Positions 57,001 through 60,000 of a stretch of 64,000 nt of DNA are shown piece by piece (within the stretch, counting starts at the first letter, position 1; each line of letters begins with the position of its first letter). The position numbers are program-made. The stretch lies in the NCBI RefSeq assembly GCF_054482525.1, contig NZ_CM137006.1; one strand, 5' to 3'.

Positions 57001-60000
57001 TATACTGAACAAATACATATATTACTTTCCTAATGAGAACTCACCATTTTATACACTGAAAATTGACAGTGCATTATCGTGGGATGCCATTGACGCAATA
57101 CGAGACTATAGTATTTCTGATATTTATCTTTATCCTGAACAAAAAACAATAAATTGTGTCGTTGAGATTGAAAACATTGTCTTTGGCGGTTACATTTATA
57201 CATTGAACAACGGCGTCACATTACAAAACATAGAAAACTCTTTAAAAGATTCTTCATGCCATTATGTCTTAAATGGCTATACAGAATTTGTTAACTGTTT
57301 GAGACAACTTACTTCAGGAAAGACTGAAAGTGTTCATCGCACCATCAATAAACTGAACTATGAGAAATTACCTTTTGGATTTATCATTGCCGCGTTTGCT
57401 ATACTAAAGATAGCATTTAAAATAAAATTCAGTAAAAATCATGTAAATATCCGAGCATTATTAAATGACATCAATTATTTTATGACTTATCAGGGCGAGT
57501 CCATTAACCTTATTTCACTGGATCACGAATACCCAGAGTCCTGTCTTCAAAATGACACAAACACATATTTATTAGGAAGAGTAATATTTCTGTATAACTC
57601 AATGATTTATAAGTTCATAAACTGTCAGGAACATGAAACCAATAACATTCACTCAGCTATGATAAATAACCTATTACAGGAAGTTGATATAGCCCTTGGT
57701 AAAATAAATGACATTATAGACAGCAGAAACATATCAACCCCCCATGAACTGGCAAATATTCTTACCCGCGAAAAAATACTTACAACACGGGAAAAAAAAG
57801 GAAACCTGATAAGCCTGTTTGATGGATTCACTTTATTCCATTGTGTTGGAATGATAACCTTTCTTATCCATTATCTCAGAACACCTGAAGAAAAAGTTGA
57901 AAATATATTTATGTTATATGGTGCAGATAAAAACAATAAACTACGCAGAAGACTGATTTATGACGCACTAGGAATAATTCAGTCTCAGCAGGAGTGAAGA
58001 GTTAAACAGGCAAATTATTTTTTATAAAAAGGGGATTGTTAAGTAATCCCCTGTTAATCAAAATACGCTTTCCTGACGATCTGATAATTATCAGCTCAAT
58101 ACATTTGACATAAAAGCGGTTTCTTAATTACTACTGCTACGATCACATATCAAATCATGATCGTACAATATACATTTTCACTATTATTTATTCACAATTT
58201 GAGACATCACATAATCCGCCCATGCCTGCATCATCGGTACACGCTGCTCCAGTAGATCAGTACGATGATATGCCGCCTCAACCTTATTTTTCAGCGTATG
58301 AGCGAGCGCCCTTTCCGCCAGATCCCGCGAATACCCCTGTTCGCTACACCAGTCCCTGAATGTTGAGCGAAAACCATGTGCCGTGGCAACTCGCCCCGGA
58401 ATGTCACTGACGGCTTTCTTTTTACGCAGAAAACTTGTCAACACCATATCGGAAAGGATCTGCTGCTTTCTGGGTGAAGGGAACACCAGTTCATCATGCA
58501 GGCCACGTATATTTTCCAGAATGTAAATAGCCTGCCGGGATAAAGGAACACGATGCTGTAGCCTAGCTTTCATTCTTTCTGCAGGTATAGTCCATACCCG
58601 CTTATGAAAATCAATTTCAGCCCAGCGCATTCCCCTGGCTTCGCCCGAGCGAGTTGCTGTAAGTATCACCATTAATAACAGTGCGCGGGTAACATTATAA
58701 GGTTCATCGGTATACACACTGGTCGCCACAAAAAGCGGTAACTGCCTCCAGGGCATTGCGGGTTGGTGTTCATCACGTCCTCTTGTCTGCTGAGGAAGCA
58801 AATGGTCAACCACATCAACAGGATTTGCTACACAAAAACCGTGCGCCCATCCCCACTGCATAACAACATGAATGCGCTGTTTAACCCGGCTTGCCGTTTC
58901 TGACAAGGTTAACCAGACTGGACGCAGTGTTTCTGCCACGTCCGCAGCCGTAATCGAATCCAGCGTTTTTGCTCCCAGTTGAGGAAACGCGTAATTCTCA
59001 AGCGTCGATAACCACTGCCTTACATGCTTTGGATTTTCCCATCCAGGAGACAGTTCTGCATGTACACGCCTGGCTGCATCGGCAAATGTTGGGATAGCGA
59101 CTTTCTCAGATTCAGCCTTTTTAATCTCCAGAGGATCATCACCTGCAGCAAGTTGCTCTCGCATTATCCGGGCAGTACGTGCAGCTTCAGCAATACTGAC
59201 CTCTGGGTAAGTTCCCAATCCAGCATTACGTCTTTTTTGTGTCACCGGACTTACATAACGAAAAACCCATTTCCCCCGCCCCTTTACTGAAGAAGGATGA
59301 AGGGTCAGTCCGGTAATTCCCCCATGGGGCAATGGTTTGTCATCAGGTTTGATATGTCTTGCTTTCGTATCCGTCAATACTGCCATACGCTAATTCCCGT
59401 CACTCTGGTATGCCATCCAGTATGCCATTAGTCTCTCGCTTCACTAAGAATACATTAGATAATATCGGACAACAAAAAGTGTAATACATTGTTTATAATG
59501 AAATTATATAACACCCCTGGATTAAGTCAGATTTATTTCAGGCGGTCCCCCTCACCGCCATATTCAAAGAAGAGCTCGTACGAAAGTGCGAGCTTTTTTT
59601 TCGCATATTGCACTCCAGGGGGGATGAGAAGCCCCGACCGGGGTTCGACAACTGGCGCAGCCAGTTGGACAGACCACGAACGCAGTGAGTGGGCTGCCCG
59701 CAGGGCGAGCGAAGCGAGTCAATCCCCCCCCTCACCGCCATATTCAAAGAAGAGCTCGTACGAAAGTACGAGTTTTTTTTCGCATTTTATCTGCCTGTAC
59801 GGCAGTGAACGGTATAAAAATCGAGTTTTTCTTTCGGTTGGCTTTCTAAGCTGCCTGTACGGCAGTGAACTCAAATACTACACGTCTAGCCCGTTGTTAA
59901 TAAAGCAAAACCATCTCATTTTCCTGCTACCACCCTTTTTTATCCTTACCTTCCCGCAGCACTAATTATCAACAACTTACAATCATCATCAAAAAAAGGG

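What the first reader, a model, noticed from the sequence alone, without database searches (positions are those of the whole stretch)
59791..59870. Pair of identical 20-bp palindrome-containing repeats between the att core and clpA
CTGCCTGTACGGCAGTGAAC occurs at 59791..59810 and 59851..59870; each contains the inverted repeat CTGCC-N5-GGCAG. They could be protein-binding sites or REP-like elements.
Basis: seen in the sequence. Interest (0 to 1): 0.25.

Follow-up and report, generated by a model that had tools for sequence, protein, structure and literature searches.

The report
Orphan mini-CRISPR array targeting csy3
The two repeats are the well-known two-repeat remnant of E. coli's type I-F CRISPR system next to clpA, and its single spacer matches a gene of that same CRISPR system (csy3), an arrangement already published as a guard against re-acquiring the system.

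Summary
The interpretation missed what it is. On the minus strand the copies are the first 20 nt of two 28-nt type I-F CRISPR repeats (Rfam CRISPR-DR4, 50.1 bits against a gathering score of 35, for 59870..59843; a copy with a degenerate 3' end at 59810..59783). They are separated by one 32-nt spacer (59842..59811), giving a 60-nt period. This is the cas-less array of the E. coli clpA-serW-infA locus, called CRISPR4.1-2 or "CRISPR3" in the literature. It keeps a leader 95.9% identical to that of cas-bearing strains, and the window encodes no I-F Cas protein. The spacer matches csy3 of I-F-positive Escherichia at 30-31 of 32 positions, directly after the CC/GG PAM, and has no phage or plasmid target. 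Spacers from six other orphan lineages likewise hit cas1f or cas3f. 368 complete genomes carry this spacer, 241 carry csy3, and none carries both. The repeat is not dispersed (median two copies per genome), so it is not REP-like. The "anti-cas" function was proposed in 2010 and tested in 2016. This is a real feature that is already known, so interest is low.

The parts
59843..59870 (-). Full 28-nt type I-F CRISPR repeat (leader-proximal), GTTCACTGCCGTACAGGCAGCTTAGAAA. It supplies the 8-nt 5' handle CUUAGAAA of the crRNA.
   Evidence: Rfam RF01317 CRISPR-DR4, 50.1 bits (gathering 35), E 1e-10, model positions 1-28 of 28. Identical to the repeats of cas-associated arrays in I-F+ strains. Hairpin of -8.6 kcal/mol.
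59811..59842 (-). Single 32-nt spacer GCCAACCGAAAGAAAAACTCGATTTTTATACC, an anti-csy3 spacer.
   Evidence: Matches csy3 of I-F+ E. coli at 30/32, and of E. whittamii and Escherichia sp. E1V33 at 31/32, each directly preceded by CC. All mismatches are at third-codon positions. No phage, plasmid or viral-contig target.
59783..59810 (-). Terminal repeat GTTCACTGCCGTACAGGCAGATAAAATG. The first 20 nt (hairpin plus the inferred Cas6f cleavage site, which become the 3' handle) are intact; the last 8 nt are degenerate.
   Evidence: CRISPR-DR4 29.7 bits, below gathering. The same modified terminal repeat occurs in every cas-less strain sampled: K-12, O157, Nissle, 536, CX05, 2015C-3121, CLSC36 and PCN033. 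Hairpin of -8.6 kcal/mol.
59871..60083 (-). Leader of the array, i.e. the whole interval from the clpA stop codon to the first repeat. It includes the clpA terminator.
   Evidence: Window 60083..59843 is 95.9% identical over 241 bp to the CRISPR4.1 leader plus first repeat of I-F+ strain 025542-1. A nine-strain alignment has 94% mean column identity, and the 60 bp next to the repeat are almost invariant.
59965..59992 (-). Promoter-like site in the leader (TTGATG-16-GATAAT), pointing into the array.
   Evidence: Consensus scan, 9 of 12 matches. GATAAT is invariant in all nine leaders. This is a consensus match only; transcription was not tested here.
60028..60061 (-). Intrinsic terminator of clpA, upstream of the leader promoter-like site.
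   Evidence: 15-pair stem followed by a T run.
59747..59780 (.). Hairpin terminator of serW/RtT that abuts the terminal repeat. It marks the distal end of the array and may end the pre-crRNA.
   Evidence: Terminator-like on the + strand (15 pairs plus a T8 run) and a weaker one on the - strand at 59772..59755. The same junction occurs in K-12 and PCN033.

Best explanation
The pair of 20-mers is a minimal, cas-less (orphan) type I-F CRISPR array on the minus strand. Its order is leader, full repeat, one 32-nt spacer, terminal repeat. It is the array that nearly all E. coli carry between clpA and serW/infA, named CRISPR4.1-2 by the Mojica group and CRISPR3 by Touchon & Rocha. Shown here: its identity, geometry and leader homology, the absence of I-F cas genes from the window, and that the spacer is a copy of an internal segment of csy3 (the Cas7f backbone of the I-F surveillance complex) flanked by the I-F PAM. 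Inferred from published I-F biochemistry: the array alone does nothing with its transcript. If a mobile element brings in an I-F cas operon, Cas6f would cut after nucleotide 20 of each repeat. That would release one 60-nt crRNA made of CUUAGAAA, the 32-nt spacer and GUUCACUGCCGUACAGGCAG. This explains why exactly the first 20 nt of the terminal repeat are conserved while its last 8 nt are free to decay. The incoming Csy complex loaded with this crRNA would then bind the csy3 gene of the incoming operon next to its CC/GG PAM, and Cas2-3 would degrade that DNA or prime new spacer acquisition from it. The system would thereby be destroyed along with its carrier. This 'anti-cas' function was proposed for these arrays in 2010 and reported experimentally in 2016. 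For this particular anti-csy3 spacer it is an inference. The spacer has the same sense as the csy3 mRNA, so antisense RNA regulation of csy3 is not the mechanism.
For: Repeat identity: Rfam CRISPR-DR4 at 50.1 bits against a gathering score of 35. Period of 60 = 28 + 32 and a hairpin in both repeats. Locus: 100% identity to E. coli PCN033 between RtT/serW and clpA, which is the CRISPR-III locus described in PMC3903273. Leader 95.9% identical to the leader of a cas-associated CRISPR4.1 array. No I-F Cas protein is encoded anywhere in the window; every tblastn hit has E above 0.03, and the best hit is the spacer itself. Spacer against csy3: 30/32 in two E. coli alleles and 31/32 in two other Escherichia species, always with a 5' CC flank and only synonymous mismatches. 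Shuffled spacers reach at most 21/32. Seven of eight distinct orphan spacers from other lineages hit cas1f, cas3f or csy3 at 29-32/32, with CC flanks. 368 genomes have the exact spacer, 241 have csy3 and none has both, against 16 expected if independent (P = 3e-8, not corrected for phylogeny). Literature: the anti-CRISPR hypothesis and the conserved terminal repeat (PMC2886076). Native orphan arrays interfere with plasmids carrying I-F cas genes and prime spacer acquisition (Almendros 2016, as summarised in PMC8616872). The GG PAM lies at the leader-proximal end of the protospacer (PMC3506596). The I-F crRNA is 8 + 32 + 20 nt (PMC3890593).
Against: No sequenced csy3 allele matches the spacer perfectly. 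The commonest E. coli allele (UTI89-like, about 200 genomes) has a mismatch at position 2, inside what I recall (from memory) to be the PAM-proximal seed of type I systems. Against that allele, direct interference may be weak and priming more likely. Transcription of this array was not tested; the promoter is only a 9 of 12 consensus match. The mutual exclusivity is partly structural and phylogenetic, because the orphan array and the cas-associated array occupy the same site and I-F+ strains are largely one clade. The primary experimental paper could not be read, so I do not know whether this specific spacer was among those tested. Touchon & Rocha listed Cas1, Cas3 and Csy2 targets but not Csy3.
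Confidence: 0.85

Rival explanations
1. Inert relic. The array is what was left after a self-targeting spacer against csy3 forced loss of the I-F cas operon. It persists only by inertia and has no present function.
For: Only two repeats remain. The terminal repeat is degenerate. In K-12-type strains the terminal hairpin carries a G-to-A change. The spacer mismatches every known csy3 allele at 1-2 positions. Touchon & Rocha attribute to Diez-Villasenor et al. 2010 the idea that cas-targeting spacers caused the loss.
Against: The exact 32-nt spacer is kept in 368 genomes. The leader stays 94-96% identical to functional leaders. Precisely the 20 nt needed for crRNA maturation are intact in the terminal repeat. 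Different lineages all retain anti-cas spacers. Touchon & Rocha argue that spacers are normally lost quickly, so retention suggests selection. Interference by native orphan arrays has been reported.
Confidence: 0.12
2. DNA-level protein-binding sites or REP-like extragenic palindromes acting locally, for example on clpA or serW expression.
For: Each copy contains a 5-bp inverted repeat, and they lie in an intergenic region between a terminator and clpA.
Against: Full-length match to a CRISPR repeat model. Exact 28 + 32 geometry. Identical repeats form long cas-associated arrays at the same site in other strains. The copy number is two per genome rather than hundreds. The sequence between the copies is a csy3 fragment with a PAM, which an operator or REP model does not explain.
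Confidence: 0.02
3. Chance duplication, or hairpins that serve only as transcription terminators.
For: The hairpins are short, and the array sits between two terminators.
Against: 0 of 100 shuffles give two copies. The hairpins lack T-runs. Conservation across 5418 genomes.
Confidence: 0.01

Closest known systems
Orphan CRISPR4 array of E. coli: CRISPR4.1-2 in the CRISPR-III locus (Diez-Villasenor 2010; Almendros 2014, 2016), also called CRISPR3 / 'anti-CRISPR' (Touchon & Rocha 2010)
   Same: Same chromosomal site (clpA to serW/infA), same 28-nt repeat, same modified terminal repeat, same leader, no adjacent cas genes, and one spacer matching an I-F cas gene with the correct PAM.
   Different: Nothing in kind. 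The spacer here targets csy3, whereas Touchon & Rocha's 2010 set listed Cas1, Cas3 and Csy2 targets. In this lineage an RtT-like element lies between the array and serW, and an island of more than 59 kb is inserted in serW.
Complete type I-F CRISPR-Cas system of E. coli B2 strains (LF82, UTI89) and of Pseudomonas aeruginosa / Yersinia pestis
   Same: The repeat is identical to E. coli I-F repeats and differs from the P. aeruginosa PA14 repeat at 2 of 28 positions. Same 32-nt spacers, the same leader as CRISPR4.1, and the same PAM logic.
   Different: No cas1f, cas3f, csy1-3 or cas6f in the window. Only one spacer, and no second array (CRISPR4.2) between serW and infA as far as comparable cas-less strains show.
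Mini-CRISPR arrays and solitary repeat units on viruses and mobile elements
   Same: One spacer flanked by a complete and a partly degenerate repeat, dependent on Cas proteins supplied in trans (PMC8616872).
   Different: This array is chromosomal, sits at a fixed core-genome site, is vertically inherited species-wide, and targets the cas genes themselves rather than a competing element.
REP/BIME extragenic palindromes
   Same: Short intergenic palindromes.
   Different: Two copies per genome instead of hundreds, with a CRISPR repeat sequence and geometry.

Membership tests
Type I-F CRISPR array (CRISPR-4 repeat type; Rfam CRISPR-DR4) | Repeat sequence matches the family model over its full length | tested here: met
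   59870..59843 scores 50.1 bits against a gathering score of 35, covering model positions 1-28 of 28. The second copy scores 29.7 bits, below gathering, because its last 8 nt are degenerate, as expected for a terminal repeat.
Type I-F CRISPR array (CRISPR-4 repeat type; Rfam CRISPR-DR4) | Regular repeat-spacer periodicity (28-nt repeat, 32-nt spacer) | tested here: met
   Repeat starts are 60 nt apart, and the spacer is exactly 32 nt. Same geometry as the arrays in I-F+ strains and as published.
Type I-F CRISPR array (CRISPR-4 repeat type; Rfam CRISPR-DR4) | Repeat forms the stem-loop at repeat positions 6-20, which I-F biochemistry assigns to Cas6f recognition | tested here: met
   5-bp stem and 5-nt loop in both copies, -8.6 kcal/mol, matching the Rfam consensus structure. 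Cas6f binding itself was not tested.
Type I-F CRISPR array (CRISPR-4 repeat type; Rfam CRISPR-DR4) | Leader adjoining the first repeat | tested here: met
   95.9% identity to the CRISPR4.1 leader of an I-F+ strain. Conserved in nine strains.
Type I-F CRISPR array (CRISPR-4 repeat type; Rfam CRISPR-DR4) | Spacer derived from a protospacer flanked by the system's PAM (GG at the leader-proximal end, i.e. 5' CC on the spacer-identical strand) | tested here: met
   The csy3 protospacers are preceded by CC in all five alleles examined. PAM definition from PMC3506596.
Complete type I-F CRISPR-Cas system | Adjacent cas1f, cas2-3f, csy1, csy2, csy3 and cas6f genes | tested here: not met
   tblastn of all six proteins against the 64-kb window gave no hit better than E = 0.03. 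In I-F+ strains the genes lie between the array and serW. The rest of the genome is not available.
Orphan anti-cas CRISPR4 array of E. coli | Located between clpA and serW/infA with no I-F cas genes at the locus | tested here: met
   clpA ends at 60084. An RtT-like element and a serW remnant lie on the other side. No cas genes.
Orphan anti-cas CRISPR4 array of E. coli | Spacer matches a cognate I-F cas gene found in related strains | tested here: met
   csy3 at 30-31 of 32 positions. No other credible target.
Orphan anti-cas CRISPR4 array of E. coli | Conserved modified terminal repeat shared by cas-less strains | tested here: met
   ...CAGATAAAATG occurs in all eight cas-less strains sampled. 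It differs from the terminal repeats of cas-associated arrays (...TATTCACA...TTTTCAAA and ...TCTTCAAA). This conservation is noted in PMC2886076.
Orphan anti-cas CRISPR4 array of E. coli | Array is transcribed and elicits interference or priming against DNA carrying I-F cas genes | not testable with these tools
   Reported for native orphan arrays by Almendros et al. 2016, as summarised in PMC8616872. The primary paper is not held. Only a promoter-like consensus match is available here.
REP/BIME-like dispersed palindromes | Many dispersed copies per genome | tested here: not met
   Median of 2 places per genome in 5418 genomes. Only 6 places are on plasmids, and high counts occur only where large arrays exist.

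The most novel reading that the evidence does not exclude
The anti-csy3 spacer was captured from a csy3 allele that is not among the 241 csy3-bearing complete E. coli genomes. It is a mosaic of the two E. coli alleles and is closest (31/32) to alleles of E. whittamii and a cryptic Escherichia clade. It would then record an old invasion by a foreign I-F system. Beyond blocking defence-type I-F systems, such always-present orphan crRNA templates might also be used by other incoming I-F-type machines, such as I-F3 CRISPR-associated transposons, which one study reports co-opt host defence arrays (PMC10369902 abstract). The evidence here does not exclude this, and nothing here supports it directly.
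Probability: 0.05. Interest if true: 0.55.

Novelty: already known. Interest (0 to 1): 0.18.

Why it matters
It matters mainly for annotation. Neither the PCN033 record nor the other seven cas-less strain records fetched (including K-12 MG1655) lists any feature over this array, so a sequence-only reader can mistake it for operator sites or REP elements. Biologically it is a neat, already-published case of a CRISPR array working against its own Cas machinery. That case helps explain why I-F systems are rare in E. coli: csy3 is present in 241 of 5426 complete genomes. This lineage's spacer adds csy3 to the list of targeted genes I could verify. The mismatch pattern predicts different outcomes against different incoming csy3 alleles: direct interference against the 025542-1-type allele, and probably only priming against the UTI89-type allele.

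Tried and rejected
1. K-12 coordinates recalled from memory were wrong twice. The correct region was obtained.
2. The primary paper (Almendros et al. 2016, Nat Microbiol) is not held. I relied on the same group's 2021 review and on Touchon & Rocha 2010.
4. Searches for other spacer targets found nothing credible. Plasmids gave only E of about 3 or worse, apart from a 4.9-Mb E. coli chromosome filed as a plasmid that carries the same array. Phages gave no place covering 80% of the spacer. IMG/VR gave 0 hits.
5. The search for a perfectly matching csy3 allele found none. The best was 130/132 with a chimeric query in E. coli and 31/32 in other Escherichia.
6. I tried to reconstruct the deletion that removed the cas operon by comparing the sequence after the terminal repeat with the cas6f-serW interval of I-F+ strains. 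No recognisable scar was found, so this is inconclusive.
7. The exact source strain of the window was not found. The array region is 100% identical to PCN033, which lacks the island. The island junction is at best 99.2% identical to any complete genome.
8. Rfam sub-threshold hits to MicC, Thr leader and Leu leader at 59505-59779 were dismissed. They are terminator-hairpin look-alikes far below gathering score.
9. Antisense regulation of csy3 mRNA was rejected because the spacer has the same sense as the csy3 coding strand.

Full report
**Observation.** The 20-mer CTGCCTGTACGGCAGTGAAC is present exactly at 59791-59810 and 59851-59870 and nowhere else in the window, even with three mismatches allowed. 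None of 100 dinucleotide-preserving shuffles gave two copies. The internal palindrome CTGCC-N5-GGCAG is real.

**What it is.** Read on the minus strand, the 20-mer is GTTCACTGCCGTACAGGCAG, and the two copies start 60 nt apart.
- Rfam matches 59870..59843 to CRISPR-DR4 (RF01317) over all 28 model positions at 50.1 bits (gathering 35, E 1e-10).
- Rfam matches 59810..59783 to the same model at 29.7 bits. This second copy has the first 20 nt intact and the last 8 nt diverged: ATAAAATG instead of CTTAGAAA.
- Between them lies one 32-nt spacer, GCCAACCGAAAGAAAAACTCGATTTTTATACC (59842..59811).
- A 28-nt repeat with a 32-nt spacer is the published type I-F geometry (PMC3890593).
- Both repeats fold into the consensus 5-bp stem with a 5-nt loop, -8.6 kcal/mol.

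**Context.** The region 59741-60090 is 100% identical to E. coli PCN033, where it lies between an annotated RtT sRNA/serW and clpA and carries no annotation of its own.
- clpA ends at 60084 and is followed by its terminator at 60061..60028.
- The interval from the clpA stop to the first repeat (60083..59871) is the leader. Together with the first repeat it is 95.9% identical over 241 bp to the leader of the cas-associated array of I-F-positive strain 025542-1.
- Nine strains, cas-less and cas-bearing, align at 94% mean column identity. The 60 bp next to the repeat are almost invariant, and so is a GATAAT that forms the -10 of a promoter-like site at 59992..59965.
- Distally, the terminal repeat abuts the serW/RtT terminator hairpin at 59747-59780.
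- In I-F-positive strains the layout is clpA, CRISPR array, cas1f, cas3f, csy1, csy2, csy3, cas6f, serW, second array, infA.
- None of the six Cas proteins has a tblastn hit in the 64-kb window better than E = 0.03. The best hit is the translated spacer itself.
- This is the locus called CRISPR-III, with arrays CRISPR4.1 and 4.2, or CRISPR4.1-2 when the cas genes are absent (PMC3903273). Touchon & Rocha call it CRISPR3 (PMC2886076).

**The spacer.** A search of 5426 complete E. coli genomes found the spacer at its own locus and, in I-F-positive strains, inside csy3.
- It matches the 025542-1 allele at 30/32 (mismatches at positions 26 and 29).
- It matches the UTI89 allele at 30/32 (mismatches at positions 2 and 23).
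- In both alleles the protospacer is immediately preceded by CC. All mismatches fall on third-codon positions, so the encoded peptide is identical.
- CC on the spacer-identical strand is the same as the GG PAM at the leader-proximal end of the protospacer defined for E. coli CRISPR-4 arrays (PMC3506596).
- A chimeric query showed that no complete E. coli genome has a perfect protospacer; the best was 130/132.
- Across one genome per species, the closest alleles are in E. whittamii and Escherichia sp. E1V33, at 31/32 with a CC flank.
- The spacer looks like a mosaic of the two E. coli alleles, which suggests capture from an unsampled allele.
- There is no credible match in phages, plasmids or IMG/VR contigs.

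**Generality.** I extracted the arrays at this site from K-12, O157, Nissle 1917, 536, CX05, 2015C-3121, CLSC36 and PCN033.
- All have the same leader, one or two spacers, and the same modified terminal repeat.
- Seven of the eight distinct spacers match cas1f, cas3f or csy3 at 29-32 of 32 positions, with CC flanks. Shuffled spacers never exceeded 21/32.
- The exact anti-csy3 spacer is present in 368 genomes and csy3 in 241, with no genome holding both. About 16 would be expected under independence (hypergeometric P = 3e-8).
- That number is not corrected for phylogeny. The exclusivity is also partly structural, because both states occupy the same site.

**Not REP-like.** The repeat occurs in 5418 of 5426 genomes with a median of two copies per genome, which is this pair. 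Only genomes with large arrays have many copies.

**Mechanism.** Shown here: the identity, the geometry, the leader homology, the absence of cas genes, and the spacer-csy3-PAM relationship. The rest is inferred from published I-F biochemistry (8-nt 5' handle, 32-nt spacer, 20-nt 3' handle generated by Cas6f).
1. Transcription from the leader would give a precursor.
2. Only an incoming Cas6f could cut that precursor after nucleotide 20 of each repeat, yielding one 60-nt crRNA.
3. The last 8 nt of the terminal repeat are not part of any crRNA.
4. The incoming Csy complex loaded with this crRNA would target the csy3 gene that encodes it, and Cas2-3 would degrade the carrier DNA or prime new spacer acquisition.

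The idea was proposed by Touchon & Rocha in 2010. According to the Mojica group's review, it was demonstrated for native orphan arrays in 2016, including primed spacer acquisition and constitutive expression of the arrays. For this specific spacer it remains an inference. The position-2 mismatch to the common UTI89-type allele lies in what I recall, from memory, to be the PAM-proximal seed of type I systems, so direct interference against that allele may be weak. The spacer has the same sense as the csy3 mRNA, which excludes simple antisense regulation.

**Rivals.** The main rival is that the array is an inert relic left after self-targeting forced loss of the cas operon. The molecular object is the same and only the present-day function differs. 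The other rivals (DNA operator sites, REP elements, chance) are contradicted.

**Verdict.** This is a real feature, correctly located but misidentified. It is the already-described orphan type I-F mini-CRISPR of E. coli, here carrying an anti-csy3 spacer. Novelty: already known. Interest is low, apart from its value for annotation and as a clean worked example.

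Noticed in passing
window 59547-59560 (serW 3' fragment), 58184-59386 (- strand, integrase ORF), and everything to the left: Homology to the unoccupied site (PCN033) begins at 59547 with the last 14 nt of tRNA-Ser serW (CCCCCTCACCGCCA). 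A tyrosine-integrase ORF lies immediately to the left. ARAGORN finds no tRNA in the whole 64 kb, so a genomic island or prophage longer than about 59 kb is inserted in serW, and the intact tRNA copy lies beyond the window. The junction is at best 99.2% identical to any complete E. coli genome.
   Followed up: partly
window 59604-59740 (+): An RtT-like element (Rfam RF00391, 41.3 bits, just below the gathering score of 45; annotated 'RtT sRNA' in PCN033) ends in a tRNA-like CCCCCCCCTCACCGCCA plus a second copy of the serW terminator. It lies between serW and the CRISPR array only in some lineages. Most strains have serW abutting the array, and some have two tandem RtT copies.
   Followed up: partly
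L002 ~5603 and L003 ~5600 (minus strand of the loci, cas3f-csy1 intergenic region of I-F+ strains); not in the window: A solitary repeat-like unit GTAAACTGCCGTACAGGCAG (2 mismatches to the first 20 nt of the repeat, hairpin intact) sits antisense between cas3f and csy1 in both I-F+ strains examined. It might be a Cas6f-binding or regulatory element; I did not pursue it.
   Followed up: no
L002 9818-9905 and L003 9814-9901 compared with L013 485-572: I-F+ strains carry a different serW allele from cas-less strains...GGTGAGGCGGGGATTCGAACCCCGGATACG against ...GGTGAGGGGGGGATTCGAACCCCCGATACG. The changes are in the acceptor/T-arm region. This suggests the whole clpA-infA segment, tRNA included, was exchanged together with the cas operon.
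   Followed up: no
L012 899-1357 (strain CFIAFB20140388): In this strain an IS200C transposase gene occupies the serW-clpA interval, and only the clpA-proximal 68 bp of the query region match. This is one of the rare genomes in which the orphan array appears disrupted or lost.
   Followed up: no
L013 414-441 (K-12), L004 and L011: In K-12-type strains the terminal repeat has a G-to-A change (CAGACAG) that breaks one pair of the 5-bp hairpin. In the window both hairpins are intact. This could affect crRNA 3' processing in those lineages.
   Followed up: no
window 27861-28205 (-), 48018-48134 (+), 7488-7724 (-), 28624-28691 (-): The whole-window Rfam scan also found STnc490 and STnc100 sRNAs side by side, an ALIL pseudoknot (IS3-family frameshift element), an IS102 RNA, and a weak tRNA-like hit (30.7 bits) that ARAGORN did not call. 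All lie inside the inserted island.
   Followed up: no
PLSDB record NZ_CP134663.1 (hit H66): A 4.9-Mb E. coli replicon filed in the plasmid collection carries the same orphan array. It is almost certainly a chromosome mislabelled as a plasmid.
   Followed up: no
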